From the IMG/VR virus record IMGVR_UViG_3300035152_000011: 64,000 nucleotides of DNA. The stretch is one strand, 5' to 3'. How positions within the stretch are numbered: the stretch's first letter is position 1; every line of letters starts with the position of its first letter. Shown piece after piece: positions 445-62,659 of this stretch. Made by a program: the position numbers and the translations under genes. Below the pieces are notes generated by a model. The model was not told the origin of the DNA, made no database searches, and was given only the letters and a program-made list of their open reading frames with translations. The DNA comes from a virus.

Positions 445-462
445 TGATCGCAACCGCGATCA
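445..462. promoter_or_regulatory. Palindromic operator-like site TGATCGCAACCGCGATCA (family TGATCGC-N4-GCGATCA).
   Basis: Perfect 7-bp inverted arms with a 4-bp centre, 10 bp upstream of the ATG at 472. Confidence 0.5.
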
Positions 463-471
463 CAGCTAACC

Positions 472-780
472 ATGCGGGTGAAGGTGGAAGCTGCTGTTTG
501 TCCGTCGTGCGGCCGCGGGGATCTCGCGGTCCATCAGGCCGGCCGACTCCGGATCGTCTACTGCACGACTTGCGGATTCGAGCAACGCGAGGCCGCAGCT
601 CCATCCGCGGTCCCTTGGACGAGAGCCGAGCGCGCCGAGGACCGTGCTCGGAAGCGAGCCGCGGCGGCACTCGTCGAGCGCAGTGCCAGCTCGGAGCCGA
701 TCCGGGTACTCAAACGACGACTTCGCGCGCGTATCGACGCGCGCAACGCGTTGCTACGGAGATCGCTGCGGCGGCGCTGA
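472..780 (+). CDS. Small zinc-ribbon protein with a basic C-terminus.
   Basis: Six-frame ORF of 102 aa with two CxxC pairs (CPSCG...CTTCG); the operator lies just upstream. Confidence 0.4.
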   Translation: MRVKVEAAVCPSCGRGDLAVHQAGRLRIVYCTTCGFEQREAAAPSAVPWTRAERAEDRARKRAAAALVERSASSEPIRVLKRRLRARIDARNALLRRSLRRR

Positions 781-786
781 CGCCGC

Positions 787-1146
787 CTACTTGTCGATGG
801 TGTGGAGAACTTGCAGTTCCAGGATGCCGTCGTTGATCGTGCCTGCCTGGCCGCTGACCTCGATCTGGGCCAAGCCGCCGCTGTTCTGGGCGTCCACGGA
901 CCAGAAAGCCTCTTTCCCCGGCGTGATGTGGACGACGCTGCCGCCGCCGCCCATGAGCAGCAGGACAGCCTCGGCGTCATTTGTCACAGGGATCTGAAGC
1001 ACCTTGAGGATATGCGGACGGCCGCCAGCATCGGCTTGCAGGGTCGCGTTGGAGATGATCAGCGTATCGCCGGCCAGGCCGTCGTGGTTGATGGCGTAGA
1101 ACAGGCGGTAGTCGGTTGCGCGAACGAGGACTGCGGTAACGGCCAT
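787..1146 (-). CDS. Hypothetical protein.
   Basis: ORF of 119 aa with non-repetitive composition and high GC3. Confidence 0.45.
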   Translation of the reverse strand: MAVTAVLVRATDYRLFYAINHDGLAGDTLIISNATLQADAGGRPHILKVLQIPVTNDAEAVLLLMGGGGSVVHITPGKEAFWSVDAQNSGGLAQIEVSGQAGTINDGILELQVLHTIDK

Positions 1147-1155
1147 GTTGATCTC

Positions 1156-1788
1156 CTAGTGGCCGCTGCGCTTGACAGCGACAACAGCGATGATGGTCCC
1201 GATAACGGCGAGGCCACCAACGACGCCGACGATGGCCATCGTGCGGGACTTCCGTCGGGCGATGGGCGCGGTCGCTGCTGTGGTCATGGTCGTAGTCGGC
1301 GTAGTCGGCACGGCCGGTGTCGTGACCTGGGTCGCGGCCGGGACCATTGGCGACGTGCCAGGCTGGGCTGGTGCCGTCGTGGTCGGCGATGGGATGGTCG
1401 GCGATGGGATGGTCGGACTAGGCACTGCGACTGGTCGTGGGGTGAGCAGCGTGCGCAGCTGAGTAGTCAGCTCCAACGCATTCTGAGCTGCGACCTCTTT
1501 GCTGAATGCCCCGCGCGCCTGACCCAAGGCCCCCGTCACAGTCGGGTTTCGTGAAGCGATCTCGCGGATGAGCGTGACAGTCTGGGTGCCAATAAAGCCA
1601 TCTACGGCGATCTGGCCCATTCCGTAGAACGCCGCGACCTGGTTGGCAGCCTGTTGCAGCTCTTGGAATTTGGCGTGCGTCGCGCCGCCGTCGCTGCCGT
1701 AACAGATTTTGGTGCCGCACTTGTAGTTCGTGCCTTCGACGAGGGCGCCACCGAGCTGGTGCGGGTCTCCCATGTGCGCGTAGAGCAT
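1156..1788 (-). CDS. Membrane-anchored protein with a Pro/Thr-rich linker.
   Basis: 210 aa with a C-terminal TM helix (IVGVVGGLAVIGTIIAVVAV), PSPTIPSPTIPSPT repeats and a globular Cys-containing N-terminal domain. Confidence 0.5.
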   Translation of the reverse strand: MLYAHMGDPHQLGGALVEGTNYKCGTKICYGSDGGATHAKFQELQQAANQVAAFYGMGQIAVDGFIGTQTVTLIREIASRNPTVTGALGQARGAFSKEVAAQNALELTTQLRTLLTPRPVAVPSPTIPSPTIPSPTTTAPAQPGTSPMVPAATQVTTPAVPTTPTTTMTTAATAPIARRKSRTMAIVGVVGGLAVIGTIIAVVAVKRSGH

Positions 1789-1805
1789 GAAGACAGCCTA
1801 TCACA

Positions 1806-1823
1806 AGATCGCGGCCGCGATCA
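1806..1823. promoter_or_regulatory. Palindromic operator-like site AGATCGCGGCCGCGATCA.
   Basis: Perfect 16-bp core palindrome GATCGCGGCCGCGATC in the divergent intergenic region between the 1788 (minus) and 1841 (plus) gene starts. Confidence 0.5.
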
Positions 1824-1840
1824 TCTGCTAGACTGCGGCT

Positions 1841-2134
1841 GTGCCATACAGCCGGAACAGCATCCGGATCGACCTCGGAGAGGGCCACTCGCTCTACGTC
1901 GTGCGCGAGAATGGCAACCCCGAGGTCATTGTCTCCATCGTCCAGCCAATCACGAAGAAGCTCTCAGAACGCCTCAAGCTCTCGCTGACGGTCCCCCAGG
2001 CCATGCGGCTGTCGCGAGCGCTGGCCAGTGTCGCGACCCTGGACGGGCCGCTACGGCTGCCAGGCGTCACGCCAGTGCCGGAATTAGATCCCGACGAGGA
2101 GGACACGGACCCAGCAATTAAAAAACCCGGCTAG
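1841..2134 (+). CDS. Hypothetical protein (GTG start).
   Basis: 97-aa ORF with strong GC3 bias on the plus strand; its stop overlaps the terminator hairpin. Confidence 0.45.
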   Translation: MPYSRNSIRIDLGEGHSLYVVRENGNPEVIVSIVQPITKKLSERLKLSLTVPQAMRLSRALASVATLDGPLRLPGVTPVPELDPDEEDTDPAIKKPG

Positions 2135-2149
2135 CTTTCGCCAGCCGGG
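2120..2149 (-). terminator. Rho-independent terminator between convergent genes.
   Basis: Plus strand reads AAAAAACCCGGCTAGCTTTCGCCAGCCGGG. On the minus strand this is a 7-bp GC stem followed by UUUUUU, immediately downstream of the helicase stop (2166) and at the end of the plus gene 1841..2134. Confidence 0.6.
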
Positions 2150-2165
2150 TTGTGGGGATGTCTAC

Positions 2166-3652: not shown

Positions 3653-3707
3653 GTCTCGCGGTTCTGTCCGCTTCCAAGAGTCAGACGTATGGGCGCACCG
3701 GATATTC

Positions 3708-5228: not shown

Positions 5229-5693
5229 CTACTTCTTGGCAGGCTTCTTGGCGCTGCTCTTGGCCTTCGACTTCTTGGACGCCGCGGGCTTCTTGGCGGG
5301 CTTGCCTGCCGCGGCCTTCTCAGCAGCGGCTTTGCGAGCTGCTGCCTTCTTTGCGATCTTCTCTTTGCGGGCCAGTTCGTTCTGGTCCGCAGGAGGCTTC
5401 GGAGCAGCGGGTCTGGGTTTTGGCGCCGGCTCTGGCGCCGGCTTTGGCTCTGGCAACTCGGCCTCTATCGTGAGTACCTTCTCGATAGGCGGAGGCTCTG
5501 GGGCTGGTGGTGGAGGAAGCGGCGGCGGTGCTGCGCTTGGCAGCTCGACGTCTCCTGGGATGCCCAGTGTCACGAGCTGGCGCCGCAACTTCATTGGTGG
5601 CCCGTCGAGCTTGAGAATCGCGCCCTCCTTGGCCCATCCCCCGTCTTTCGTGCGCTCCCAGCCGTTCTCACACAGGTAGTCCACGAGTCTCAT
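5229..5693 (-). CDS. DNA-binding protein with a histone H1-like Lys/Ala-rich C-terminal tail.
   Basis: C-terminus AKKAAARKAAAEKAAAGKPAKKPAASKKSKAKSSAKKPAKK plus a Pro-rich linker. Start taken at internal Met (MRLVDY) because the operator palindrome at 5708..5725 lies inside the longer ORF. Confidence 0.55.
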   Translation of the reverse strand: MRLVDYLCENGWERTKDGGWAKEGAILKLDGPPMKLRRQLVTLGIPGDVELPSAAPPPLPPPPAPEPPPIEKVLTIEAELPEPKPAPEPAPKPRPAAPKPPADQNELARKEKIAKKAAARKAAAEKAAAGKPAKKPAASKKSKAKSSAKKPAKK

Positions 5694-5707
5694 GACTTCA
5701 TGGTACT

Positions 5708-5725
5708 TGATCGTGTACACGATCT
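5708..5725. promoter_or_regulatory. Operator-family palindrome TGATCGTGTACACGATCT (core GATCGTGTACACGATC perfect).
   Basis: 15 bp upstream of the 5693 start. Confidence 0.45.
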
Positions 5726-5970
5726 CAAACGGCCTGAAAAAAAGCAAAGGCCGCAGGGTGATCAACTCCGCGCGGCCCTTGTACCAGTAGCACGCTACTG
5801 GCGGGTACGGGCTCTACTCTATCAATTCCTTCGGCGCGTTGTAACGGCAATTCGCGCAGTACCACTGATCGCCTTCCCGAACCATCTCCGAGGCGTAGCA
5901 ATACGGACTGGTGATTTGATGCAGCCACACCTTCGTGCAGCTCCAGGCTCGGCGGAGCCAACGCATGCCG

Positions 5971-10131: not shown

Positions 10132-10728
10132 CTAGGCGGCCTTCAGGCGCCGTTTCTTGGTTGAGCACTGACGTAGCTCACGCTTCAACGCCGCGTTCTC
10201 GTCCTTGAGAGCTTTGATCTGCTTCCGCAGTTCGGCGGCCTTCTCTTTGAGCTTGCGGACCATCTCGATGGTGTTCGTTTGCCGCTTACGCGGCACGATC
10301 TTGTCGAGCGCCTTTGAGAGTGATGAGCCCGCCGGTGGCCGGTTGGTCTTCTTCATGACCTTGTCCAGCTCGCGTAGCGCGCGTGTCTGTCCTCGTTTGT
10401 CGGGGATTCGATTCAGAACGCGTAGGAGCGCGAGACGTCCGTAGCGCTTGAACGCCGCGTCACCGAACGTGTCGAGGACGCGCAGCGTGTTGCGGACCTC
10501 GGCAGAGCCCTCGTGGAGACAGTAGCGAAGCACGTCGTTGAACGTGTACTCGACCATCTCATCGTAGGTAGCCTGCGAAGCGTAGCGCTTGCGGTCAAGC
10601 CACGGTTCGGTGTCACGGAGATGACGAAGCAGAACGGCGCGCTCCAGCTCGTTGCTCTCGCGACGCGCACGCAACGAGTGCCAGGTCGTCTCAATCTTCG
10701 CCCAGGACAGTCCCCTGAAGTTGATCAT
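10132..10728 (-). CDS. Hypothetical protein with a basic coiled-coil C-terminus.
   Basis: 198 aa. Confidence 0.45.
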   Translation of the reverse strand: MINFRGLSWAKIETTWHSLRARRESNELERAVLLRHLRDTEPWLDRKRYASQATYDEMVEYTFNDVLRYCLHEGSAEVRNTLRVLDTFGDAAFKRYGRLALLRVLNRIPDKRGQTRALRELDKVMKKTNRPPAGSSLSKALDKIVPRKRQTNTIEMVRKLKEKAAELRKQIKALKDENAALKRELRQCSTKKRRLKAA

Positions 10729-11135
10729 TGACTGTTCCCTTCGTAGAGGACGTTGCGAAGCAGACTGAGCGCCTCGGCATCAGATGTGATTGCACCCATC
10801 GTGATGCCGTCGAAGACCCAGCGCGCCTTCTGCACCGCGGTCTGCGCCTGCTTGGGCGTCATGCGTGCGGCTCCGACGGGTGTGCCGTTCTTCTCGCCGT
10901 TCTTCACACCGTTCGGTGGCGCTTTTGGCTTTGCTTTTGCTCGCCGTGGGCGATTTGCGGCTAGCTTCGTCACGTCGGCCTTCGAGTACAAGTTGCGATT
11001 GTTCGCAGCCTTCTTGACACGGATCTTCTTTTCGCGGCCGAGCTTCGAGACGTAGTTGGGGTTGGTGCCGAGCAGCTCTGCCGCATCATTCGGCGAGAGC
11101 CACTGAGCAGTGGACTTCGTTGGCGGCATTCCCAT
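10725..11135 (-). CDS. HTH DNA-binding protein (excisionase- or terminase-small-like).
   Basis: N-terminal HTH WLSPNDAAELLGTNPNYVSKLGREKKIRV and a basic middle region. Confidence 0.45.
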   Translation of the reverse strand: MGMPPTKSTAQWLSPNDAAELLGTNPNYVSKLGREKKIRVKKAANNRNLYSKADVTKLAANRPRRAKAKPKAPPNGVKNGEKNGTPVGAARMTPKQAQTAVQKARWVFDGITMGAITSDAEALSLLRNVLYEGNSQ

Positions 11136-11247: not shown

Positions 11248-11265
11248 TGATCGCAGCTGCGATCC
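11248..11265. promoter_or_regulatory. Operator palindrome TGATCGCAGCTGCGATCC (17 of 18 positions).
   Basis: Intergenic, upstream of the 11135 gene start. Confidence 0.5.
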
Positions 11266-15436: not shown

Positions 15437-15694
15437 CTACTCAGACGGCTCGGCGTTGTCGGAATTCAAACAGTGCTCGTAGTACTTGGCAGCCGTCTCG
15501 ATAGCGTCGCCGAGCGTACGGGCAAAGAGTCGGTGAGTTGGCGGTGGGCCGATAGGTGAAACCCGCCAACACCGGCCGTACTTGCGGCCAGCTCGCCGGC
15601 AGGTGCCGACGATCCAACCGTCGTGGAGATGGAGCACCCAGGTCTGAGATGCTTCGCGCTTCACCGCGTAGCCTTGTTTGTAGTCTCGTCTCAT
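15437..15694 (-). CDS. Small hypothetical protein next to the CRISPR trailer.
   Basis: 85 aa; not Cas2-like. Confidence 0.4.
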   Translation of the reverse strand: MRRDYKQGYAVKREASQTWVLHLHDGWIVGTCRRAGRKYGRCWRVSPIGPPPTHRLFARTLGDAIETAAKYYEHCLNSDNAEPSE

Positions 15695-15815
15695 GATTTC
15701 ATCGTCCGCTTCGTGTAGTCCTCAGCCATTCTGCGCAGAGGAAATCGTCTCGATCTGTCGGTCATCGAGCTGACATTCCAAGCGTGCCGTGTCATCGAGC
15801 GGGCTGGACAGAGAT

Positions 15816-17052
15816 GTCTCAATCTGTAAGCCATTGAGCGGGCATTGCGGCGAGACGACGCGAGTACAGTCTCAACCTATTTAGCCGTTGAGCGGGCATT
15901 GCGGTCCAGGCTGTTGGTGGAGAGATCGAACAACAGTCTCAATCTATGAGCCATTGAGCAGGCATTGCGGCTTCGAGCAGACCGTAGCGGTACCAGTCTC
16001 AATCTATGAGCCATTGAGCGGGCATTCCGGCCCAGCCCCGCACACCCAAGACGTACTACCTGCAATCGTCTCAATCTATGAGCCATTGAGCGGGCATTCC
16101 GGCGCGCGCGAGCCGGTGTGCATCGCGGCTCAGCCGGTCGTCTCAATCTATGAGCCATTGAGCGGGCATTCCGGCGGCCTGCTGTCCCCGACGCGTTTTC
16201 GCGACTTCGTCGAGTCTCAATCTATGAGCCATTGAGCGGGCATTCCGGCCTCGTGCAGCTCGTCTCACCGAGACGAGATATACGAGCTGTCTCAATCTAT
16301 GAGCCATTGAGCGGGCATTCCGACGTGCGGCCTTCAGCATCGTCTCGTCGATGGTGGCATGTCTCAATCTATGAGCCATTGAGCGGGCATTCCGGCCGGT
16401 GCGACGGGGTCGAAATCGTCGCTGTCTCAATCTATTCAGCCATTGAGCGGGCATTCCGGCTTGCCGACCGACGCCGAGATTCTCAAGAAGGGGATAGTCC
16501 CAATTTATGAGCCATTGAGCGGGCATTCCGGCGCGATCCGTGCCGGCCATGCGGATGATGAGGTTGAGTCCCAATCTATGAGCCATTGAGCGGGCATTCC
16601 GGCGCAGCGGTCGCTGGGGCACTACTGCGGTGCACAGTGTCTCAATCTATGAGCCATTGAGCGGGCATTCCAGCACGCCCACTTGTAGTAGAAGCCCATG
16701 GAAATCTGCCGTCTCAATCTATGAGCCATTGAGCGGGCATTCCGGCACGAACGGCTGGTCCGTGAGTGCTCGTATGTCATCGGTCTCAATCTATGAGCCA
16801 TTGAGCGGGCATTCCGGCACGAACGGCTGGTCCGTGAGTGCTCGTATGTCATCGGGAAGCACTGTGGAACCTGTCTCAATCTATGAGCCATTGAGCGGGC
16901 ATTCCGGCACCTCGTACGGGCGCTCAACGACGATGCAGGCACTCAGTCTCAATCTATGAGCCATTGAGCGGGCATTCCGGCCCATCCGCGCGGGCAAGCG
17001 GCTCCTTTTCGAGGAAGTCTCAATCTATGAGCCATTGAGCGGGCATTCCGGC
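15816..17052 (-). CRISPR. CRISPR array of 18 repeats (36 bp, consensus GTCTCAATCTATGAGCCATTGAGCGGGCATTCCGGC on the plus strand) and 17 spacers.
   Basis: Direct repeats at 15816, 15869, 15936, 15996, 16068, 16140, 16214, 16289, 16361, 16424, 16497, 16568, 16639, 16711, 16783, 16873, 16946 and 17017. Consensus copies cluster at the 17052 (cas12-proximal) end and decayed copies at the 15816 end, with further remnants back to about 15745. Spacer lengths are 17-54 bp and mostly 35-37. The minus-strand repeat RNA ends in a CUCAAU/AUUGAG hairpin next to the spacer, which fits a type V crRNA read in the same direction as the cas12-like gene. Confidence 0.9.
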
Positions 17053-24991: not shown

Positions 24992-25034
24992 CGTCCAGAA
25001 GTGAGACGACTGGTGATGGGGAAAGATTCAGAAT

Positions 25035-25052
25035 TGATCGCCGCTGCGATCA
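25035..25052. promoter_or_regulatory. Operator palindrome TGATCGCCGCTGCGATCA (one mismatch).
   Basis: About 45 bp upstream (sense) of the 24985 hairpin, followed by TTTTTT on the plus strand. Confidence 0.5.
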
Positions 25053-29568: not shown

Positions 29569-29613
29569 CAATCGCCTTCAGAAACTAAGACGTCGGGCGC
29601 ACCCCGGAAATTC

Positions 29614-29629
29614 GATCACAGGTGCGATC
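29614..29629. promoter_or_regulatory. Operator-family site GATCACAGGTGCGATC.
   Basis: Preceded by GGAAATTC and followed by TTTTT on the plus strand; same module layout as the other promoters. Confidence 0.45.
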
Positions 29630-29664
29630 TTTTTCATCGGACAAGGGTTTCGGGCAGTTAGCTG

Positions 29665-31792: not shown

Positions 31793-31848
31793 CCAGGTGC
31801 GCTATTTGCGCGTTCAGAAGGTCAGACGAATCCGGGCCGCAGAAATTC

Positions 31849-31864
31849 GATCACAGGAGCGATC
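31849..31864. promoter_or_regulatory. Operator-family site GATCACAGGAGCGATC.
   Basis: Flanked by GAAATTC and TTTTTT exactly as at 29614. Confidence 0.45.
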
Positions 31865-31892
31865 TTTTTTCTACTCCAATGATTTCAAGCGG

Positions 31893-37920: not shown

Positions 37921-37942
37921 TCGAAAGTATCAGGTCAGTCTG

Positions 37943-39283: not shown

Positions 39284-40069
39284 TCAGAGCTGCTCCTTTG
39301 CGTAGTTCAGCGCGAACGCTTGCAGAAGGTTCGGCGTGACCGCGAGCGCCTCGACAGCGTCCCGGAACTGTTGATCCTTGCTGAACCGCACCAGCAGCTT
39401 GCGGCGGATCTTGTGCGGGATGTCTATGTCGAGGATGCGCGCGACCAGCGGCGTGACCCAGAGTGCGGTAGACGCGACGTCCTTGAGGTTGGTGGCGTAG
39501 TCGTTGACGTAGTCTGGTCCGCGCTCGTAGGTCAGACCCGCGTCACGGACCGCGGCATAGTACTGGCCGCGGGTACTGACGAGCCCCGCAGTGTCTACAC
39601 GCTTGGCGACGTCGGCAGCCTCGACCGCGGCGTCCTGAAGCGCCCGTCGCACTTCGCAGACAGTATCCGCGTGCTCGAAGACCTTGCGCTTGCGCTCACC
39701 GTAGCCCGCGGGAAATGAAGACGAGTCCCGCTTGACGATCTCCGGGTACGGTCCGCTGCCGTGACGGCAGCCGCAACGCTCACAGACCGGCGAGCCCAAG
39801 TCGAAGACCGTCTCGGTCGTGATACCGCCGTCGCTGATGACGGCCAGCTCACCGCGGAGCGTACCGAGATGGCGCGCGGTCGTGAGTGTTGGCGCTCGCG
39901 TGTCGTGCAGGATCTCGATCACGCCATCGGCTCGGCGAACCCACGCGATGGGCATGTCGTAGCTGTAGAAGTACGTCCCGTCGGTGTAGAACCGCCCCTT
40001 CGCGCTCTTGTATTCGCGCGCTTCCTGGTAGACGAAGGCCTCGACGGTGCGGTCAAATGGATTGCTCAT
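39284..40069 (-). CDS. Hypothetical protein.
   Basis: Start at MSNPFDRT gives an ATGA overlap with the upstream stop; CERCGC motif. Confidence 0.45.
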   Translation of the reverse strand: MSNPFDRTVEAFVYQEAREYKSAKGRFYTDGTYFYSYDMPIAWVRRADGVIEILHDTRAPTLTTARHLGTLRGELAVISDGGITTETVFDLGSPVCERCGCRHGSGPYPEIVKRDSSSFPAGYGERKRKVFEHADTVCEVRRALQDAAVEAADVAKRVDTAGLVSTRGQYYAAVRDAGLTYERGPDYVNDYATNLKDVASTALWVTPLVARILDIDIPHKIRRKLLVRFSKDQQFRDAVEALAVTPNLLQAFALNYAKEQL

Positions 40070-40545
40070 CTTGCCTCCGTTGCGAAGTAGACCGCAAACA
40101 GCGTGCCGTCGCGGACCTCGCGGTGATCGGGCGTCCACTTGACTTCGATGCTCCAGGGCTCGCAGCAGCGACGGCAGCGACCGTAGTGCTCACCGTCGCA
40201 GCCGCCACCCGTCTCGGTTGTCTGAAGCTCGGGAAGCTCCAGGCCGGCTGGTGCACCTGGGATAGCGACGACAGCACGGCTCTCCTCGTCGATCTCGATA
40301 CACCAATCGTGATGCACGCTGCTGATGCTTCCGTATTCGTACGGCCCGATGCCCTCGTCTACCCACCGGCCGGTGATCTCCGCGACGTCCTGGATCGCGT
40401 CCGCGATCAGGTCGGCGAGGTCATCCTCTAGCAACTCTTCGGTCCAGTCGATCTCGACCTCGGCGACGTTCTTGATGCGCACAGCCTGGTCGATGAGCTT
40501 CGTAGGCGCGGGCGGCGGGTAGTATGGCGCGACGTAGTGACGCAT
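40066..40545 (-). CDS. Hypothetical acidic protein.
   Basis: 159 aa. Confidence 0.45.
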   Translation of the reverse strand: MRHYVAPYYPPPAPTKLIDQAVRIKNVAEVEIDWTEELLEDDLADLIADAIQDVAEITGRWVDEGIGPYEYGSISSVHHDWCIEIDEESRAVVAIPGAPAGLELPELQTTETGGGCDGEHYGRCRRCCEPWSIEVKWTPDHREVRDGTLFAVYFATEAR

Positions 40546-45673: not shown

Positions 45674-45993
45674 CACTGTGGCTCCTCGTCCCCTCGGGGA
45701 CCGTCGGGCGGCACTTCGCCGCTTGCACTACTGGAACGTTCGGACGGCGCTGAACATTCACAGTTGATCCTGTCCGCGATCACCATTCCAAGCCCAGTGG
45801 CCCACCAGAGCCCGTCGCCCGCGGAGTCCACGAGCGCACGCATCTGGAGATGCACAGCCGCAGCAGCGAAGCTGCGGTCAAGCGCCACACCCCGCTTGCG
45901 GTTCTCGATGCCGAGGTAAAGCAGGCAGCGAGTCATGGTCGGCGTGAGTCGGCGACTCTTGGCGGTGGGTGTGAGGTGCGGTTTCATGGTCAT
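45673..45993 (-). CDS. Hypothetical protein (3' end runs into the regulatory module).
   Basis: High GC3 over the first ~75 codons; the C-terminal tail is encoded by operator/hairpin sequence. Confidence 0.35.
   Translation of the reverse strand: MTMKPHLTPTAKSRRLTPTMTRCLLYLGIENRKRGVALDRSFAAAAVHLQMRALVDSAGDGLWWATGLGMVIADRINCECSAPSERSSSASGEVPPDGPRGDEEPQ
45688..45701 (-). promoter_or_regulatory. GC hairpin variant GGTCCCCGAGGGGAC.
   Basis: Sense strand reads GGTCCCCGAGGGGAC-GAGGAG-CCACAGTG-ATG. Confidence 0.55.
45755..45772. promoter_or_regulatory. Degenerate operator-family site TGATCCTGTCCGCGATCA.
   Basis: Outer arms TGATC/GATCA are conserved; followed in sense by the GAATGTTCAG...CGTCCGAACG promoter-like boxes. 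Confidence 0.35.
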
Positions 45994-48175: not shown

Positions 48176-48244
48176 TCGCTGACTCCTCGGAGTCCAGTGG
48201 GCGCTCCGTGCGCCTCCACTGCTAAGACGTATGTCGGGGTCGGA

Positions 48245-48937
48245 TTATTCACTGAGTCGGGCCGCGAATTCCCGCAGCTCCTCTTCGTGTGCGTGCAGCA
48301 ACTCGGCGTTCTGCGCTTCTCGCTCACGCCACCGGCACCGGGCCTCGTAGTCCTCGCGGTCGTACCGGCGACGCAGCGCGCAGTGGTTCGCCTCGAAGTG
48401 AGTGCTAGCACGGTCAACTTGGCCGTTCGAGAGCACGACCTCCCACTCATTCGCGCCCCAGAAGCCGTAGACGGGCCGAGGTCGGATTCCGACGACGCTG
48501 GGCACTACTTCCTTCTCGGGCTCGCGGAACGCGTCGTGAGCGCGCCTGAGCGCCTCTGAGGAGCGCTCCAGGTACCACTCGGCCAGGTCCGACAGACACC
48601 AGACGGTGACACCGTCGTGCCGACGGGTCTTCTCGATCCAGTCGCGGCCGGCCTTTTCCAGCCAGCGTGTGTGGGTCGCGGTCACGTCGCGCGCCTCGAT
48701 CACGCCACCCCGGTCAGCGATCTCACAGAACAGCCGGAACTGGTCGGAGCCGAGCGGCTTCGTCTGCGTGGCACCCTCGGCGTACATGACATCGAGCGCG
48801 TACTGCTCACGGTCCAGGCCGTCGAGCGTATTGAGGTAACGCTTCATGAGCTTCAGCTCGCGCAGGATCAGCGCGCGTCTGCTCTTGCCGGCCAGTTCGT
48901 GTTGCGTTCGATGCTTCATCTTCGTTGCTCCTACCAT
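48245..48937 (-). CDS. Hypothetical protein.
   Basis: 230 aa. Confidence 0.45.
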   Translation of the reverse strand: MVGATKMKHRTQHELAGKSRRALILRELKLMKRYLNTLDGLDREQYALDVMYAEGATQTKPLGSDQFRLFCEIADRGGVIEARDVTATHTRWLEKAGRDWIEKTRRHDGVTVWCLSDLAEWYLERSSEALRRAHDAFREPEKEVVPSVVGIRPRPVYGFWGANEWEVVLSNGQVDRASTHFEANHCALRRRYDREDYEARCRWREREAQNAELLHAHEEELREFAARLSE

Positions 48938-49230: not shown

Positions 49231-49412
49231 TAGTGGTTCTCCGTCGTGGCTACGGGGATGCCCGCGATCTCTTCGGTCGTGCAGGGCTTGCTCGCACGCA
49301 GGTGAACGATGGGATAGCCCAGCTCTTGAGCGAGCTTGAGCAGGGCGGCCGACTTGTGAGCTACGCGCTCCTCGTCACCGGGGGCCAGGTACAGATCGTT
49401 GCGCTTGGTCAT
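49230..49412 (-). CDS. Small hypothetical protein.
   Basis: 60 aa. Confidence 0.35.
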   Translation of the reverse strand: MTKRNDLYLAPGDEERVAHKSAALLKLAQELGYPIVHLRASKPCTTEEIAGIPVATTENH

Positions 49413-50752
49413 GCTGCTTTCCTCTCTGCCGCCTTGGCGGCCTCGTCAGCGGCCTTGCAGGTCGCGTAGAGCTTGTCGAACGCCTTGGTGTGCTTCGCGC
49501 CCTTCTCGCGGTAGACGCGCGGAGCGACGACGATGGCGGCTTCTCGGGTCGGGTACAGGTCGCGGAACGCGACGAGCTGCGCGCTGCAACCACGCTCGAC
49601 GGTCACGCCGTGCTTCCGAGCGAGCTTGCGCAGTTCAGCTTCGCACGCGAAGCGCGAGCCGGCGAAGACCTCGCGGATGTCCCGCTTCTGGTTCGCGCCG
49701 AGTCCCTTCACGGTCTCGTGCGTCGGGCAGTCGCACTTGACCTTCTTGGTGCGCGGCTTGCGGTTCGCCTTGTGGTTCGGGCAGTCGTCGGTGTGAAGCT
49801 GGCCAGCACCGTTCGCGCGCCGCATCAAGTACACAGCCCACTCGTGCGAGCTGAGCCGTGCGTCCAGCGCGTCGAGCGCAGCCTGGTTGCCAGCCTCGGT
49901 GGCTGCCGCGAGTGCGGTGCCTTCCTTGTTGAACATCGGCAGCCGCGGGTTGAAGCGGAGGGCGATGTCTTCGATCTCCAGCGCCTCGCCAGCGGCCTCG
50001 GGCTCGTCGTCCCAGCGCTCGATGGCGTCGTGGCGGTGCTGGAAGGGACAGTACACGCAGCAACTCTTCTCCCATGCGGCGACGCCAGTCACGCTCGCGA
50101 TGTGCTCGATGCAGGCTTCGCGGTCGAGGCCCCAGTCGAACAGCGGATACTCGGCGTGGCGCTGGCCGATGCCGCCGAAGTTTTGATCCTTCACGAGGCG
50201 GCCCTCTTCGCCTACTGCGAAACCGATGCAGTGACGGTAGGGCTCGTTGCCGACTTCGGACTCGATCCAGCGGTCCAGGACCCAGCCCTTCCACTTCAAC
50301 GTGCAGGTGCGGTTGCAGGTCGGCTGCATCGTCACAGCGCTGCGCAGCTCGTCAGCGTAGCTCACCGGGCCGCGCTCGAACAGCTCAGCCGGCGAGGTCG
50401 AGTCATCGAGGACAACGATGCCGTCGCGCTCGCTGTGGCCGCCGCGGGCGATCTGGACGAAGCGGACGCCGTGCTCACGCAGCAGCGGCAGGACGTGCTC
50501 GCGCACGAGTTTGTAGGTGGAGGGGTACTCGTTGCCGACCATGCAGGTGACAACGGTGAGCTGAGAGAGGTCGAAGTCGCGGCTCGACGGGTCGGTCAGC
50601 CAGCGCAGCAGGATCTCGGTGCTGTCCACGCCCATCCCGTAGCTCAGGATGACGCGGGCGCCGCGGAGCTGCTCAGCTCGTGCGCTTCGGTCCGCGTGGT
50701 AGGCCTTGACCGCTGCTTCGATTTCCCGGCGCCGCTTCTCTGCCTTCGTCAT
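49409..50752 (-). CDS. PAPS reductase-like / PP-loop family protein (second copy).
   Basis: VILSYGMGVDSTEILL (SxGxDS) and C-terminal EKSCCVYCP. Start at MTKAEKRRRE after the hairpin+RBS (GGAGGAAACGCG). Confidence 0.55.
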   Translation of the reverse strand: MTKAEKRRREIEAAVKAYHADRSARAEQLRGARVILSYGMGVDSTEILLRWLTDPSSRDFDLSQLTVVTCMVGNEYPSTYKLVREHVLPLLREHGVRFVQIARGGHSERDGIVVLDDSTSPAELFERGPVSYADELRSAVTMQPTCNRTCTLKWKGWVLDRWIESEVGNEPYRHCIGFAVGEEGRLVKDQNFGGIGQRHAEYPLFDWGLDREACIEHIASVTGVAAWEKSCCVYCPFQHRHDAIERWDDEPEAAGEALEIEDIALRFNPRLPMFNKEGTALAAATEAGNQAALDALDARLSSHEWAVYLMRRANGAGQLHTDDCPNHKANRKPRTKKVKCDCPTHETVKGLGANQKRDIREVFAGSRFACEAELRKLARKHGVTVERGCSAQLVAFRDLYPTREAAIVVAPRVYREKGAKHTKAFDKLYATCKAADEAAKAAERKAA

Positions 50753-50764
50753 CGCGTTTCCTCC

Positions 50765-50778
50765 GACCCCTCGGGGTC
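50765..50778 (-). promoter_or_regulatory. GC hairpin variant GGACCCCGAGGGGTC.
   Basis: Sense strand reads ACGGACCCCGAGGGGTC-GGAGGAA-ACGCG-ATG. Confidence 0.55.
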
Positions 50779-50840
50779 CGTGAGTGCGCTTTTCGCGCTT
50801 CCATACGTCAGACGCAGGGCGGTTTCGGAAATTCACCCCT

Positions 50841-50858
50841 TGATCGCAGCTGCGATCA
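50841..50858. promoter_or_regulatory. Operator palindrome TGATCGCAGCTGCGATCA (perfect).
   Basis: About 60 bp upstream (sense) of the hairpin, followed by CTTTTTC on the plus strand. Confidence 0.55.
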
Positions 50859-50937
50859 CTTTTTCGGCGGTCGATTCCCGAAATCCGCAGGGTTAGCCCG
50901 ATCATGATCAGCTCGTGTCCCCCAGCCCCGATCTGGG

Positions 50938-51073
50938 CCCAGCTCGGGTGGAGGGTAAGTGCGCGTAAGTACGTAATGAAACTATAGTATCATCATACTA
51001 CTGATTAACTCCTTAATCGGTAGTATACCCCCTCTGGACCAGCTCGGGTTCAGGGCTGGGCGCCAGCTCGGGG
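50938..51073. repeat. AT-rich island flanked by three CCAGCTCGGG iterons and containing a 13-bp inverted repeat (origin-like).
   Basis: Iterons at ~50938, ~51039 and ~51062. AT-rich core TAATGAAACTATAGTATCATCATACTACTGATTAACTCCTTAATCGGTAGTATAC sits in an otherwise ~68% GC context. The inverted repeat TACTACTGATTAA-CTCC-TTAATCGGTAGTA is at 50996..51025. Confidence 0.4.
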
Positions 51074-51094
51074 CCAATTCGGCCGGGGATCGCG

Positions 51095-59264: not shown

Positions 59265-59265
59265 C

Positions 59266-60027: not shown

Positions 60028-60643
60028 CAGCGACTTCCTCTCCCTCGGGCTCGTCCTCTTCGACCTGATCACGCAGCATCTTGAGCGGCGCATGCGGGTC
60101 GTCGGTCGCAGCTGCGGCCACGAGCGCGTCCTGAAGATCAACGTCGTTGAGCGCCCGGTCCATGAGCGACCGCTTCCACGGGCCTGGCATTACCTCCTGC
60201 GCGAAGGTGTGAAGCGCCTGACTGCCGTGCCAGATGATTGCCATCTCCTTCGCGACCAGCGCCGTCTGTTCCCGGTCGGCTTCACAGGCGGCGATGTGCT
60301 GCGACATGATGCCGGGCAGCGCACGCCACACCGCCACGAGGTCGCTTGAGGTTTTGCAATCGCAGATGTCACCGGTCAAGCCGTCGATGTATGGGCCTTC
60401 GTGCGTTCCTGGGGTGACGAAGATACGCCGTGACTCCTTGTTGTAGTTCGACGACTTCTGACTGCACGCATCGTGGCCGCGCAGTCCGGTCTTGGACTGC
60501 TTTACGATCTCGCGCAGCACCATCGTCAGCTCGGCTTTTGCCTCGATGAAGGTGTCCTCGACCCTCTTCTCTTCGGAGGCCGCGGCCCGGCTCGCGTCCA
60601 GCGCAGCATCGCAGAGAACCAACACGTCGAGATCGCGTCGCAT
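60020..60643 (-). CDS. Hypothetical protein; paralog family member 2 of 3.
   Basis: LVAVWRALPGIMSQHIAACEA and DLQDALVAAAATDDPHAPLKMLRDQVE. Confidence 0.45.
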   Translation of the reverse strand: MRRDLDVLVLCDAALDASRAAASEEKRVEDTFIEAKAELTMVLREIVKQSKTGLRGHDACSQKSSNYNKESRRIFVTPGTHEGPYIDGLTGDICDCKTSSDLVAVWRALPGIMSQHIAACEADREQTALVAKEMAIIWHGSQALHTFAQEVMPGPWKRSLMDRALNDVDLQDALVAAAATDDPHAPLKMLRDQVEEDEPEGEEVADV

Positions 60644-60644
60644 C

Positions 60645-61685
60645 CTAGAACCCCAGTAGCCGCCGTGCCTTGTCGAAGACCTGCGACATCGACACGACCC
60701 GCATCGGGTCGCCTTTGATCTTCAACTGGCCGCCGAAATAGGCCTGCATGAGGCTTTGCGGATCATTGTCGCGGATCACACGATGCAGCAAGTCGAAGTC
60801 GAGGACCACCGTGCACTGCGCGTTGCTCGACGCTCCTGGCGTCACGGACCGCGAGACGAAGCTGATCGTCCAGTCCAACTGGTGTGACCCTGTCGTCGAG
60901 TAGCAGACGATGTCGTCAGGCAGCTCCGTGGTCCAGTTCATAAGCACGCCCTGGAGCTTGCTCTCGAAGAAGTCCATGACGAACGCGACGGCATCTTCGG
61001 GTGGCGGCTCACGCCGGTCGCCAGCCTGATCACGGACGAGCTTTGCGACTGCACCTGGCTCACCCGTCGCCTCGGCTGCTACGAGTGCATCCTGCATAGC
61101 AGCGTTGCCAAAGACCTGCTCGACCAGCTCACGCTTGCGCGCCATCGAGACGTTTGAGTCCAGCAGTGACTCGATGACCTCGACGTTCCGGTGTACGGAC
61201 ATCGCCGCGTCTCGTTGCGCGGTGACGCTGTCCGTTAACGCCGTGCAGGCCTTGACGTGCCGGTCGAGGATCTCCGGCAGCGCATTCCACACGGCTTGTA
61301 GGTCGCCCGGATGGTAGCAGTTCTTCAGCTCGCCCGTATTGACGATGACGTGCGTAGACTCTTTGCCCGTGCCGCCAATGGGAATAGTTCGGACACCGTT
61401 GGTCGTGTGCTCCTTCTGACCGCGGAAGCCACCGCACTGTCCCGCGCACTTGCGTAGGAGCTTTTCGAGTGCCGTCTTGGCCTTCCGTACGGCCTCACCG
61501 CGCTCGTTTTCGAGCTGAGTGACCCGACGTCCGACTAACAGCGCGCGCTCGATCTTGTCAGGGTCGAGTGGGCTGAGATCAGGCACACTGTAGTCATCCC
61601 GACGATCCGCAGGCTTCGCTAGCGGCTTCCGGGTCTCCTTGGTGTGATCACGCGCAATGGCCTGCGCCTTGTGCTTATCGGCCAT
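60645..61685 (-). CDS. Hypothetical protein; paralog family member 3 of 3.
   Basis: DLQAVWNALPEILDRHVKACTA and AMQDALVAAEATGEPGAVAKLVRDQAGD. Confidence 0.45.
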   Translation of the reverse strand: MADKHKAQAIARDHTKETRKPLAKPADRRDDYSVPDLSPLDPDKIERALLVGRRVTQLENERGEAVRKAKTALEKLLRKCAGQCGGFRGQKEHTTNGVRTIPIGGTGKESTHVIVNTGELKNCYHPGDLQAVWNALPEILDRHVKACTALTDSVTAQRDAAMSVHRNVEVIESLLDSNVSMARKRELVEQVFGNAAMQDALVAAEATGEPGAVAKLVRDQAGDRREPPPEDAVAFVMDFFESKLQGVLMNWTTELPDDIVCYSTTGSHQLDWTISFVSRSVTPGASSNAQCTVVLDFDLLHRVIRDNDPQSLMQAYFGGQLKIKGDPMRVVSMSQVFDKARRLLGF

Positions 61686-61755
61686 GTTCCGAACCTATCT
61701 CCTGGGACTGACAGCGCCCTGAGCCGTCTGCTAGCCGGCCGAGCGCAGTGGTTTC

Positions 61756-62322
61756 CTAACTCCCCAATACGCGACGCACTTCCCGCTCGCCGAATTCAGC
61801 GCGCAGCTTGCCGATCTGTTGCTCCATGTCGCTCAGCTCTTTGGCTGTGGTCTTGACCGCGACGCGCTCCTCTGTCAAGTCCGCTTGGAGCTGCTCGACC
61901 GACGCATGAAAGGCTGTGCACTGCTCGCTCAGCTCAGCGAGCTGCTTCTCTTGCTCGGACAGCTTCTTCTCGGCATCGGCGCGGGCAGTGTTCGCTTCCC
62001 TGAGATCGGCTTGTAGGCGTTCCAGTTTCGTGTGTAGCTCGTTGGCTGCGTCATCGGCCGGCTGTCCGACGAGATACCTCGTCACCTGGCGTTCGCCTAT
62101 GACTGGCTTGTCCACCATGTAGTGGCATTGATTGCCCCAGTACGTGCCGTGCTCGCAGGAGCGGTCTTGTGTCGGTCCGGGACAGGGCATTTCCTGCTTC
62201 TCGGCCGTGACCGACTTCTCTTGGATGATGCAGATCAGTTCCCAGCCCTCTTTCGTGAGCCACTCAAGGTTGGCTGCATCGACCGCACGGACGTTCTTCA
62301 GGTCAGTGTTGACTGGGATCAT
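61756..62322 (-). CDS. Hypothetical protein with a C-terminal coiled coil.
   Basis: Start at MIPVNTDLKN. Confidence 0.4.
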   Translation of the reverse strand: MIPVNTDLKNVRAVDAANLEWLTKEGWELICIIQEKSVTAEKQEMPCPGPTQDRSCEHGTYWGNQCHYMVDKPVIGERQVTRYLVGQPADDAANELHTKLERLQADLREANTARADAEKKLSEQEKQLAELSEQCTAFHASVEQLQADLTEERVAVKTTAKELSDMEQQIGKLRAEFGEREVRRVLGS

Positions 62323-62659
62323 GGTCTCCCCCACGTTCGAGCTGGTCGCGCAGCCGGTCGATCTCATCACGTAGTCGCTCCATTAGCTCGGCGGGAACGC
62401 CGGGCGGTGCCTTTCGTTCCATCTTCTTCAGCTTTCGCAGATGCCGCCGCGTTCGTCGGCGCTGCGCTGCTGCTGCGAGCTTGACCTCGATCCAGCACCG
62501 GACGGTCCACCAAGGCATCGTGAGCACCGCATGCCAGCTCGTCGGCACCAGGCCGCCGCCCTGGCGCCGGCCGACGCCGATCCAGTACGACCAGCAGCCG
62601 AGGATGAGCAAGGCCCAGCAGATCGCAGCTGCGATCAGAATGACTGCGAATTTGGCCAC
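62303..62659 (-). CDS. Membrane protein.
   Basis: N-terminal TM AVILIAAAICWALLILGCW; the 5' codons contain an operator-like palindrome. Confidence 0.4.
   Translation of the reverse strand: MAKFAVILIAAAICWALLILGCWSYWIGVGRRQGGGLVPTSWHAVLTMPWWTVRCWIEVKLAAAAQRRRTRRHLRKLKKMERKAPPGVPAELMERLRDEIDRLRDQLERGGDHDPSQH
62620..62637. promoter_or_regulatory. Operator-like palindrome GATCGCAGCTGCGATCA lying within the first codons of the 62659 gene.
   Basis: Same ATTCTGATCGCAGCTGCGATC context as the helicase-proximal site; may act as an operator or be coincidental. Confidence 0.3.

What the first reader, a model, noticed from the sequence alone, without database searches (positions are those of the whole stretch)
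445..62637. Genome-wide palindromic operator TGATCGC-N4-GCGATCA (centre often AGCT) at about 10 promoter-proximal sites
Seen in sequence: perfect or near-perfect copies at 445 (AACC centre), 1806 (GGCC), 3708, 11248, 25035, 50841 and 62620 (AGCT or CGCT centre), 5708 (GATCGTGTACACGATC), and the relaxed variants 29614 and 31849 (GATCACAGGNGCGATC) and 45755. All except 62620 are intergenic and upstream of a gene start on either strand; five sit 45-60 bp upstream of the hairpin+RBS module described next. The arms are conserved while the 4-bp centre varies. Established knowledge: this is the signature of a dimeric HTH repressor site; temperate actinophages such as cluster A mycobacteriophages use many dispersed repressor sites (stoperators). 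Inference: one phage regulator, probably the immunity repressor, controls a regulon of early genes.
Basis: seen in the sequence. Interest (0 to 1): 0.75.

Follow-up and report, generated by a model that had tools for sequence, protein, structure and literature searches.

The report
Conserved palindromic operator in phage promoters
A 16-18 bp palindrome (GATCGC-N4-GCGATC) sits beside or inside about ten promoters of an uncultured ~145-kb phage and is kept at the same places in related phages, so it is almost certainly the binding site of one regulator, probably a repressor; this is an ordinary kind of control element in a new phage family.

Summary
The exact core GATCGC-N4-GCGATC occurs 8 times against 0.07 expected. 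With the variants, 10 of 12 sites lie in the 10% of the window that is non-coding.

Nearly all genes are on the minus strand. Read on that strand, the palindrome takes three positions relative to promoters:
- It abuts the -35 of six ECF-type promoters (GAATTT-N16/17-TCTGA).
- It fills the -35/spacer of leaderless sigma-70-type promoters. These are 5708 and the 52-bp divergent region centred on 1806.
- It lies about 57 or 78 bp upstream of two extended -10 promoters (the HTH_17 gene and nrdJ).

In related metagenomic phages, orthologous sites keep the arms unchanged while the flanks diverge. A true RNA terminator next to site 5708 instead changes its stem with compensation.

The best reading is an operator for a dimeric phage regulator. 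Repression is implied by the geometry at the leaderless promoters. The sign at the ECF-type promoters is unknown.

The binder is not identified. The candidates are the HTH_17 protein (10725-11135) and the only divergently transcribed gene (1841-2134, an orphan family).

The comparison with stoperators fails, and the immunity-repressor claim is untested. This is a new member of a known kind, of moderate interest.

The parts
445..462 (.). Palindrome TGATCGCAACCGCGATCA. It is non-coding and lies 57 nt upstream of the -10 hexamer of the extended -10 TGcTAGTAT (390-382, minus strand) ahead of nrdJ (start 293). Its centre is at about -78.
   Evidence: the orthologous site GATCGCGGCCGCGATT is kept upstream of nrdJ in relative 1
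1806..1823 (.). Palindrome at the exact centre of a 52-bp divergent region: CAT(1786-1788)-6nt-AGCCTA(1795-1800)-5nt-palindrome-5nt-TAGACT(1829-1834)-6nt-GTG(1841). It covers the spacer and -35 of two divergent leaderless promoters.
   Evidence: the same layout is found in L213/L214/L217 and on the small-gene side in L220
3708..3725 (.). Perfect palindrome that abuts (0 nt gap) the -35 of the ECF-type promoter of the UvrD-like helicase gene.
   Evidence: the 16-bp core is 16/16 conserved in L018 while the upstream flank is about half identical (A3)
5708..5725 (.). Variant palindrome AGATCGTGTACACGATCA (minus view). It lies in the spacer of TTGAGA(5728-5723)-N17-TACCAT(5705-5700), 6 nt before ATG 5693 (leaderless). 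Its centre is at about -23.
   Evidence: the orthologue in L018 keeps the variant, and the orthologue in L217 carries the canonical GATCGCATCCGCGATC in the same place
11248..11265 (.). Palindrome centred about 57 bp upstream of the start of transcription predicted from TTCCAT-N17-TGgTATAGA (11235-11207, minus strand), ahead of the HTH_17 gene.
   Evidence: ATCGC..C.GCGATC is invariant in four phages (A4)
25035..25052 (.). Palindrome 5 nt upstream of the -35 of the ECF-type promoter of the operon that runs through ligase, PolX and PARP towards the Cas12f-like gene.
29613..29630 (.). Relaxed palindrome (minus view AGATCGCACCTGTGATCG) overlapping the -35 G by 1 nt; this is the promoter of a PAPS-reductase-like gene.
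31848..31865 (.). Relaxed palindrome (minus view AGATCGCTCCTGTGATCG) overlapping the -35 G by 1 nt; this is the promoter of the ScoMcrA_N-like gene.
   Evidence: at the orthologous place in relative 1 the right arm is fused into the -35 (TGATCGCAGCTGCGAATA)
45765..45782 (.). Degenerate palindrome (minus view TGATCGCGGACAGGATCA) 5 nt upstream of the -35 of a weaker ECF-type promoter.
50841..50858 (.). Perfect palindrome 6 nt upstream of the -35 of the ECF-type promoter of a second PAPS-reductase-like gene.
40392..40409 (.). Exact-core copy inside gene 40066-40545 (peptide LIADAI). It may be chance.
62620..62637 (.). Exact-core copy in codons 8-13 of the called ORF 62303-62659 (peptide ILIAAAIC). 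Function uncertain.
3681..3707 (-). ECF-type promoter GAATAT-N16-TCTGA. It is one of eight on the minus strand; the others are 25002-25029, 29586-29613, 31822-31848, 45732-45759, 50808-50834, 15441-15467 and 48223-48250. The last two have no palindrome.
   Evidence: 8 on the minus strand, 1 on the plus strand; each 29-59 nt before a start codon; the -10 CGTCTGAC is conserved in L018 and L005
1841..2134 (+). 97-aa ORF, the only gene divergent from the main transcription direction next to a palindrome. It is a candidate autoregulated binder and belongs to an orphan family.
   Evidence: (75-90% identical in relatives); no Pfam or PDB match; model pLDDT 53; 15 family representatives among 1.84 billion proteins
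10725..11135 (-). HTH_17 protein (136 aa), the first gene after palindrome 11248. It is a candidate binder.
   Evidence: model pLDDT 73; N-terminal winged helix matches BldC, Pukovnik Xis and RacA (TM 0.8 on the target)

Best explanation
The palindrome is the operator of one sequence-specific regulator that binds as a dimer (or as a tandem-domain protein) and is most likely encoded by the phage. Two GATCGC half-sites lie 10 bp apart centre to centre, which is one turn of the helix. The site is wired to about ten transcription units for DNA metabolism, DNA repair and anti-defence genes.

At the leaderless sigma-70-type promoters (5708, and both promoters around 1806) the site covers the -35 and spacer, so a bound protein must exclude RNA polymerase. 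That is repression. At six ECF-type promoters it lies immediately upstream of, or overlaps, the -35 (centre about -43 to -51). There it could block sigma region 4 or the alpha C-terminal domain, or it could recruit polymerase.

Shown: the enrichment, the placement in non-coding DNA, the promoter geometry, and sequence-level conservation at orthologous sites. Inferred: that a protein binds, that it represses, and which protein it is. My rough split for the binder is HTH_17 protein 0.35, divergent 97-aa protein 0.25, another phage protein 0.3, host factor 0.1.
For: - Enrichment and non-coding placement.
- Half-site positions 2-7 are nearly invariant over 21 sites (42 half-sites) from the window and three related phages.
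- Geometry: six sites lie -1 to +6 nt from the G of GAAT in GAATTT-N16/17-TCTGA promoters.
- Site 5708 lies between TTGAGA and TACCAT.
- Site 1806 lies 5 nt from the -10 hexamers of two divergent leaderless genes.
- The same operator-5nt-(-10 hexamer)-6nt-ATG layout occurs in L214 and L220.
- Two of the eight ECF-type promoters lack the palindrome, so it is an add-on and not part of the promoter.
- Footprints: the arms are invariant in orthologous intergenic regions whose flanks have diverged (A3, A4, A5).
- The canonical and the GATCGT variant replace each other at one orthologous promoter.
- Control: the terminator and hairpin just upstream of 5708 change their stem sequence with compensation between orthologues, while the palindrome does not change.
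- Both candidate regulators have a palindrome at their own promoter in every relative examined.
Against: - No binding data exist, and no protein is identified with confidence.
- The 97-aa candidate has no known DNA-binding fold. Its model is poor (pLDDT 53), and its best, non-significant fold matches are PC4/PUR-type single-strand binders.
- HTH_17 relatives such as BldC bind direct repeats, not inverted ones.
- Spacing to the -35 varies (-4, -1, 0, +5, +6), so no single activation geometry fits.
- The nrdJ site is far upstream (about -78).
- An A5-6 run precedes four of the six ECF-associated sites, so on the opposite strand those sites read as terminators; the scan tool flagged two of them.
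- Two exact cores lie in coding DNA.
Confidence: 0.67

Rival explanations
1. The palindrome acts in RNA. As a 6-7 bp hairpin at the 3' end of the upstream operon, it would terminate, pause or stabilise that transcript. With the A/T run it could stop antisense transcription. It would then be the terminator half of terminator-promoter junctions.
For: It always lies between the end of one gene block and the next promoter. Predicted hairpins are -5 to -13 kcal/mol. Sites 25035 and 50841 are flagged as terminator-like on the plus strand. The G-U-compatible change at 29614 and 31849 keeps pairing only in the sense RNA.
Against: There is no U-run after the hairpin on the sense strand. The same stem sequence recurs at 10 sites here and in the orthologues, whereas the true terminator next to 5708 varies its stem with compensation. 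At 5708 and 1806 the palindrome lies inside promoters, 18-24 nt from start codons, where no upstream transcript needs to end. In relative 1 one arm is replaced by the -35 element. Sites 29614 and 31849 are paralogous copies, not independent events.
Confidence: 0.1
2. The repeat is mainly a recombination module. Palindrome + promoter + CCCCGAGGGG hairpin + RBS would form a mobile regulatory cassette, like the PeSL elements of T4-type phages. It would be kept similar by gene conversion, and it would mediate gain and loss of gene cassettes, with or without a dedicated binding protein.
For: - Relatives are mosaic, and the breakpoints fall at modules.
- In relative 1 the module after the 31893-32459 homologue is followed by a different gene. 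The roughly 4.4 kb between the 31849 module and the hairpin at 27372 are absent there.
- The helicase cassette with its module is absent in L217.
- The module of L018 aligns better to the window's 29614 module than to its own orthologue.
- PeSLs are described in PMC2839356 and PMC4122927.
Against: The palindrome also occurs without the ECF promoter and hairpin, in three other promoter contexts (445, 1806, 5708, 11248). The spacing between palindrome and -35 differs between copies. The palindrome is better conserved than the rest of the module. Operon boundaries are natural junctions anyway. This reading is compatible with the operator reading rather than exclusive of it.
Confidence: 0.12
3. 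The site is bound by a host transcription factor, such as a global repressor or nucleoid protein, that the phage exploits. No phage regulator would be involved.
For: No clear repressor gene is found in the 64 kb. The motif is unchanged among phages whose proteins are only 47-80% identical, as expected if the binder is a slowly evolving host protein.
Against: The host is unknown, so nothing could be tested. The exact 16-mer in metagenome contigs gave only single, mostly coding, unrelated hits. No paper holds the sequence. Both candidate phage regulators are themselves preceded by the site.
Confidence: 0.08
4. The sites are dispersed centromere or partition sites, or global silencing sites, of a ParB/KorB-type protein. 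That would resemble the 12 OB sites of plasmid RK2 or the scattered centromere sites of phage N15.
For: There are several copies of one palindrome over tens of kb, some immediately upstream of a -35 like class I KorB operators (own knowledge). Tyrosine recombinase and Ku/ligase genes would suit a plasmid-like or linear prophage.
Against: No ParB, KorB or ParA domain appears in any protein of the window or in the gene lists of the flanks. The rest of the ~145-kb genome was not examined.
Confidence: 0.03

Closest known systems
Classical operators of dimeric phage and plasmid repressors (lambda CI/Cro at OR/OL; TetR at the divergent tetR-tetA promoters) - own knowledge
   Same: Dyad symmetry with half-sites one helical turn apart. 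The site overlaps the -35/spacer. It lies at the centre of a divergent promoter pair, one side of which is a small gene that may be autoregulated.
   Different: There are about ten dispersed single sites rather than clustered tripartite operators. No CI, Cro or TetR-like protein was found. The same site also serves ECF-type promoters.
KorB OB operators of IncP plasmid RK2 (12 copies of a 13-bp palindrome; class I sites just upstream of the -35) - own knowledge
   Same: One palindrome is spread over a ~60-kb replicon and controls many operons. Some copies lie directly upstream of a -35 and others are distal.
   Different: The sequence is unrelated, and no ParB-family protein was found in the window.
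17-bp palindrome TGTTCGGNNNCCGAACA of Cluster O mycobacteriophages (PMC4351075)
   Same: Invariant 7-bp arms with a variable centre, and tens of copies that are specific to the cluster. Those authors also suggested a dimeric regulator. Recombination between copies explains some indels. The phages also carry Ku.
   Different: Most Cluster O copies are not near promoters, and the authors thought a transcriptional role unlikely. Here 10 of 12 copies sit at promoters. The sequences are unrelated.
   Same: Many dispersed sites for one repressor in a phage genome.
   Different: Stoperators are asymmetric 13-14-mers, oriented with transcription, inside operons, and they block elongation. The sites here are symmetric and lie at promoters.
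PeSL promoter/stem-loop cassettes of T4-type phages (PMC2839356, PMC4122927)
   Same: A repeated composite of a stem-loop and an early promoter at the borders of variable gene cassettes. Mosaic breakpoints fall at the repeats.
   Different: PeSL stem-loops are terminators with no proposed binding protein. Here the palindrome also occurs inside promoters and without the cassette.
Dyad sites of phage transcription switches (phi29 p4; Mu Mor/C centred at -43.5) - own knowledge
   Same: A dyad element centred at about -43 to -51, touching the -35 of a special promoter class.
   Different: Those regulators need fixed spacing, whereas here the spacing varies by 10 bp. Two promoters of the class lack the site.

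Membership tests
Operator of a dimeric transcriptional repressor | Dyad symmetry with half-sites about one helical turn apart | tested here: met
   GATCGC-N4-GCGATC, 10 bp centre to centre; positions 2-7 nearly invariant in 42 half-sites
Operator of a dimeric transcriptional repressor | Overlaps or abuts core promoter elements | tested here: met
   Site 5708 lies in the -35/spacer. Site 1806 lies 5 nt from two -10 hexamers. Six sites lie -1 to +6 nt from an ECF-type -35. The promoters themselves are predicted, not mapped.
Operator of a dimeric transcriptional repressor | Sequence, not only pairing, is conserved at orthologous positions | tested here: met
   A3, A4, A5
Operator of a dimeric transcriptional repressor | A cognate protein binds the site and lowers transcription | not testable with these tools
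   There are only positional candidates (1841-2134 and 10725-11135).
Stoperator (Cluster A mycobacteriophage type) | Asymmetric site with a fixed orientation relative to transcription, located within operons | tested here: not met
   The sites are palindromic, and 10 of 12 lie at the starts of transcription units.
Intrinsic terminator | G+C-rich stem followed by a U-run on the transcribed strand | tested here: not met
   The sense strand has no U-run. Two sites (25035, 50841) were flagged as terminator-like on the antisense strand, and 29613 and 31848 also carry an A-run that would read as a U-run there.
Intrinsic terminator | Stem sequence free to vary as long as pairing is kept | tested here: not met
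   The arms are invariant, in contrast with the neighbouring true terminator and hairpin, which covary.
PeSL-like mobile regulatory cassette | Repeated stem-loop + promoter composite | tested here: met
   Six copies of palindrome + ECF-type promoter + hairpin/RBS
PeSL-like mobile regulatory cassette | Copies coincide with indel or replacement boundaries between related genomes | tested here: inconclusive
   Two or three examples only, with no statistical test
ParB/KorB-type dispersed sites | A ParB-family protein is encoded by the element | tested here: not met
   No ParB domain in the window's proteins. The rest of the genome was not seen.
ECF (RpoE/AlgU-type) promoter - applies to the associated promoters, not the palindrome | GAACTT-N16-17-TCtgA consensus (PMC3819740) | tested here: met
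   Eight minus-strand matches to GAAT.T-N16/17-TCTGA, which differs at one position of the -35. No sigma factor gene lies in the window. A 61-aa Sigma70_r4-like ORF lies upstream of it.

The most novel reading that the evidence does not exclude
One palindromic operator ties together three promoter architectures: leaderless sigma-70-type, extended -10, and ECF-type. It would be read by a master regulator of an uncharacterised fold, namely the 97-aa beta4-alpha protein with an acidic tail. That protein is encoded by the only divergent gene and belongs to a family with just 15 representatives among 1.84 billion proteins. The whole palindrome-promoter-hairpin module would also serve as the recombination joint that shuffles anti-defence cassettes in these CRISPR-carrying phages.
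Probability: 0.2. Interest if true: 0.6.

Novelty: new member of a known kind. Interest (0 to 1): 0.45.

Why it matters
The motif gives a ready-made regulon map for an uncultured ~145-kb phage lineage. That lineage carries a miniature type V CRISPR-Cas locus, an NHEJ kit, a PARP-like enzyme and several anti-defence genes.

The operator marks the starts of at least ten transcription units. It separates two or three promoter classes and names two testable regulator candidates.

If the binder is the orphan 97-aa protein, that would define a new DNA-binding family. If the modules are recombination joints, they would explain how anti-defence cassettes are exchanged.

As a mechanism, a dispersed palindromic operator is textbook biology.

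Tried and rejected
- Close phage relatives in GenBank: none by megablast. Protein hits to phages were distant only.
- Exact 18-mer in IMG/VR: four unrelated single hits.
- Promoter + hairpin pattern in IMG/VR: only the two near-identical relatives.
- Protein-anchored scans of metagenome and genome contigs: nothing, so there is no prophage copy and no host assignment.
All were single copies, and those I read were unrelated coding sequence of the I-A-A-A-I type.
- Loci around homologues of the RlaP-like gene: 72 large phages, none with the motif system. The system is therefore confined to a small family.
- Sigma factor, CI/Cro, ParB, LexA or TetR-like genes in the window: none by Pfam or PHROGs.
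- Rfam and tRNA scans: empty.
- Dam/SeqA idea (two GATC sites 12 bp apart): GATC is at its expected frequency, and nothing else supports it.
- A sigma-70 promoter scan of the window found no enrichment overall. Only 5728-5700 is relevant.
- Structure of the 97-aa protein: confidence too low for a fold call. Profile searches against Pfam and PDB were empty.
- More distant homologues of the 97-aa gene (42% identity; L221, L222) lie in other contexts without this palindrome. L221 has a different 16-bp palindrome just upstream. This is suggestive but a single case.
- Literature search for the sequence: no occurrence of the 16-mer.

Full report
**1. The observation**

A scan for TGATCGC-N4-GCGATCA with up to two mismatches finds 10 matches, against 0.67 expected from dinucleotide-preserving shuffles. 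The exact core GATCGC-N4-GCGATC occurs 8 times against 0.07 expected.
- The site listed at 45755 is at 45765-45782.
- An exact-core copy inside a gene (40392-40409) was missed.

GC3-based and codon-based gene calling shows that almost every gene lies on the minus strand. Independent gene calls attached to the source contigs agree. Only 10.4% of the window is non-coding, yet 10 of the 12 sites fall there (P about 8e-9).

A synonymous-codon shuffle expects 0.26 exact cores in coding DNA. The copy at 40392 (peptide LIADAI) may therefore be chance. The copy at 62620 (codons 8-13 of ORF 62303-62659) makes two, which is borderline.

Over 21 sites from the window and relatives, the half-site is t-GATCGC-R-g. 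GATC as such is at its expected frequency.

**2. Anatomy on the coding (minus) strand**

The palindrome takes three positions relative to predicted promoters.

(a) ECF-type promoters.
- Six copies (3708, 25035, 29613, 31848, 45765, 50841) lie -1, 0, +5 or +6 nt upstream of the G of GAAT in a promoter-like element, GAAT(T/A)T-N16/17-TCTGA.
- That element is followed by a short conserved GGAAGCG-like stretch, then the hairpin CCCCGAGGGG, then AGGAG and ATG.
- A regular expression for this promoter hits eight times on the minus strand and once on the plus strand. Each minus-strand hit is 29-59 nt before a start codon.
- Two of the eight (15441-15467 and 48223-48250) have no palindrome.
- The element differs at one base from the AlgU/RpoE consensus GAACTT-N16-17-TCtgA (PMC3819740).
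- No sigma factor gene lies in the window.

(b) Leaderless sigma-70-type promoters.
- The variant at 5708 (GATCGTGTACACGATC) lies between TTGAGA and TACCAT, the one relevant sigma-70-type match from the scan tool. The -10 is 6 nt before ATG 5693, so the transcript would be leaderless.
- The copy at 1806 lies at the exact centre of a 52-bp divergent region. The layout is start codon, 6 nt, -10 hexamer, 5 nt, palindrome, 5 nt, -10 hexamer, 6 nt, start codon. It therefore covers the spacer and -35 of two leaderless promoters at once.

(c) Distal sites.
- The copy at 11248 is centred about 57 bp upstream of the transcription start predicted from the extended -10 TGgTATAGA, ahead of the HTH_17 gene.
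- The copy at 445 is centred about 78 bp upstream of the start predicted from TGcTAGTAT, ahead of nrdJ.

**3. Related genomes**

The window comes from a metagenomic phage on a 143-kb contig. GenBank phages hold nothing close.

Five relatives were recovered:

| Relative | Loci | Source |
|---|---|---|
| 1 | L005, L006, L213-216, L218-219 | two near-identical IMG/VR contigs of 147-150 kb |
| 2 | L018 | a 37.5-kb JGI contig |
| 3 | L019 | - |
| 4 | L217 | - |
| 5 | L220 | the most distant |

They are mosaic and 66-90% identical to the window in the DNA patches that align.

At orthologous promoters the palindrome is kept while the flanks diverge:
- Helicase promoter: 16/16 core positions, plus the -10 and the hairpin/RBS, in a region otherwise about half identical (A3).
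- HTH_17 promoter: ATCGC..C.GCGATC is invariant in four phages (A4).
- The 5708 promoter: relative 2 keeps the variant palindrome, and relative 4 has the canonical GATCGC form in the same spot.
- The divergent region: the same layout appears in relatives 1 and 4. The small-gene side of that layout (palindrome-5nt-TGgTATAGA-6nt-ATG) appears in relative 5, whose small protein is only 47% identical.
- nrdJ: the site is kept in relative 1.

There is an internal control. The hairpin and terminator just upstream of 5708 change their stem sequences with compensation between orthologues, as RNA structures do. The palindrome next to them does not change.

**4. Mechanism**

The symmetry, the one-turn spacing, the sequence-level conservation and the promoter placement point to a dimeric DNA-binding regulator.

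Where the site fills the -35/spacer (5708, both promoters at 1806, and L214 and L220 in relatives), a bound protein must exclude RNA polymerase. Repression there follows from the geometry, although the promoters are predicted and not mapped.

At the ECF-type promoters the centre lies at about -43 to -51 in the window, and at about -40 in relative 1, where the right arm is fused into the -35. The variable spacing, and the two promoters without a site, argue for an added control element rather than a fixed-geometry activator site. The sign of regulation cannot be decided from sequence.

The controlled genes include:
- a UvrD-like helicase and nrdJ;
- an operon running through ligase, PolX and PARP towards the Cas12f-like gene;
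- two PAPS-reductase-like genes and a ScoMcrA_N-like gene followed by an AcrF31-like gene;
- the HTH_17 gene and a lysine-rich protein.

**5. Who binds?**

Two candidates are marked by position.

The HTH_17 protein (10725-11135):
- It is the first gene after site 11248 in four phages.
- Its model (pLDDT 73) has a winged helix like BldC, Pukovnik Xis and RacA, plus a conserved two-helix C-terminal domain.
- Two relatives carry tandem HTH copies.

The 97-aa protein (1841-2134):
- It is the only gene divergent from the main direction next to a palindrome, and it sits on the palindrome-centred bidirectional promoter.
- It is 75-90% identical in relatives.
- It has no Pfam, PDB or PHROG relative. 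Its model is poor: four strands, one helix and an acidic tail, at pLDDT 53. Only non-significant PC4/PUR-like matches were found.
- Its family has 15 representatives among 1.84 billion proteins.

Neither assignment is more than an inference. The binder may lie outside the window; for example, a 61-aa Sigma70_r4-like ORF lies upstream of it. The binder may also be a host protein.

**6. Rivals**

- RNA terminator or stabiliser. This is unlikely. There is no sense-strand U-run, the stem sequence is invariant, and some copies lie inside promoters. However, four of the six ECF-associated copies carry an A-run that makes them terminator-like on the opposite strand, and the scan tool flagged two of those.
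- PeSL-like recombination cassette (PMC2839356, PMC4122927). This is compatible with the operator reading and is supported by two or three mosaic breakpoints at modules. It cannot explain the copies outside the cassette.
- Host factor. Untestable without a host.
- ParB/KorB-type sites. No ParB gene was seen.

**7. Comparison with known systems**

The element works like a classical operator regulon.
- It is not a stoperator system: it is symmetric, it sits at promoters, and it is not oriented with transcription.
- In copy number and dispersal it resembles the KorB OB sites of RK2 (own knowledge). It also resembles the 17-bp palindrome of Cluster O mycobacteriophages, whose authors also suspected a dimeric regulator but found most copies away from promoters (PMC4351075).
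- The exact sequence appears in no paper of the library.

**8. Verdict**

The feature is real, conserved and almost certainly regulatory. It is a new member of a known kind.

The 'immunity repressor', 'stoperator' and 'actinophage' parts are unsupported or untested.

Interest is moderate. It lies mainly in the wiring of one operator to different promoter classes, in the orphan candidate regulator, and in the unusual phage that carries it.

Noticed in passing
window 15750-17049 (minus strand) and ORF 17025-18620 (minus strand): A phage-borne CRISPR array. There are 16 copies (up to 3 mismatches) of a ~36-nt repeat, GCCGGAATGCCCGCTCAATGGCTCATAGATTGAGAC, spaced about 72 bp apart. The array starts at the 3' end of a 531-aa ORF that hits Pfam Cas12f1-like_TNB, so this is a miniature type V CRISPR-Cas locus. 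Two neighbouring spacers share sequence. Relative 1 has the Cas12f-like gene too. Relative 2 has other genes at that place.
   Followed up: partly
window, 11 exact sites on the minus strand: 3641, 22526, 24002, 24980, 27372, 29557, 31781, 37908, 44626, 45690, 50767: The hairpin CCCCGAGGGG lies a few nt upstream of AGGAG and the start codon of 11 genes, including genes with no promoter in front. It is a start-associated sequence, conserved in relatives, and it also appears at mosaic breakpoints.
   Followed up: partly
window 15441-15467 and 48223-48250 (minus strand), plus six more: Eight promoters of the form GAAT.T-N16/17-TCTGA, one base away from the AlgU/RpoE consensus. No sigma factor gene lies in the window. 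A 61-aa Sigma70_r4-like ORF lies about 7 kb upstream of the window's right end on the source contig.
   Followed up: partly
window 1786-1841, 5691-5728; L214 about 1440-1500; L220 142-181: Several genes appear to be leaderless, with a -10 hexamer TAnnnT exactly 6 nt before the start codon. This bears on the unknown host.
   Followed up: partly
window 19728-21170, 22033-22512, 22572-23450, 33805-34182, 40556-41488 (all minus strand): The phage carries a eukaryote-like PARP (WGR + regulatory + catalytic domains) together with a full end-joining kit: Ku with a lysine-rich tail, LigD-type phosphoesterase, ATP-dependent ligase and PolX. An ADP-ribosylglycohydrolase gene lies just outside the window.
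   Followed up: no
window 28471-29538, 49409-50752, 30565-31767, 30290-30538 (all minus strand): Two PAPS-reductase-like genes, a ScoMcrA_N-domain protein and an AcrF31-like small protein, each group headed by a palindrome-bearing promoter. This suggests DNA-modification and anti-defence cassettes.
   Followed up: no
window 37927-37942 and 27532-27547 (minus strand): The 16-mer CAGACTGACCTGATAC occurs twice, each time in an intergenic region shortly before a gene start. It may be another regulatory motif.
   Followed up: no
window 50964-51027 (minus strand), inside the 342-bp gap 50753-51094: A 64-bp A+T-rich island (tatactaccgattaaggagttaatcagtagtatgatgatactatagtttcattacgtacttacg) in a 62% G+C genome, just upstream of palindrome 50841. 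It could be a promoter cluster, a small RNA or an origin-like element.
   Followed up: no
window 5784-5801 and 5737-5777 (minus strand): A hairpin (CCAGTAGC-GT-GCTACTGG) and a terminator with a T-run lie upstream of site 5708. Both keep their pairing through compensatory changes in relative 2. I used them as a control for what RNA structures look like here.
   Followed up: yes
window 2124-2151 (minus strand): A strong intrinsic terminator (12-bp stem, T7) closes the helicase unit. It overlaps the 3' end of the divergent 97-aa gene.
   Followed up: no
L221 72-87: A 42%-identical homologue of the 97-aa protein in an unrelated context is preceded by a different perfect 16-bp palindrome, CGAGAGCTAGCTCTCG, 12 nt before its start codon.
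   Followed up: no
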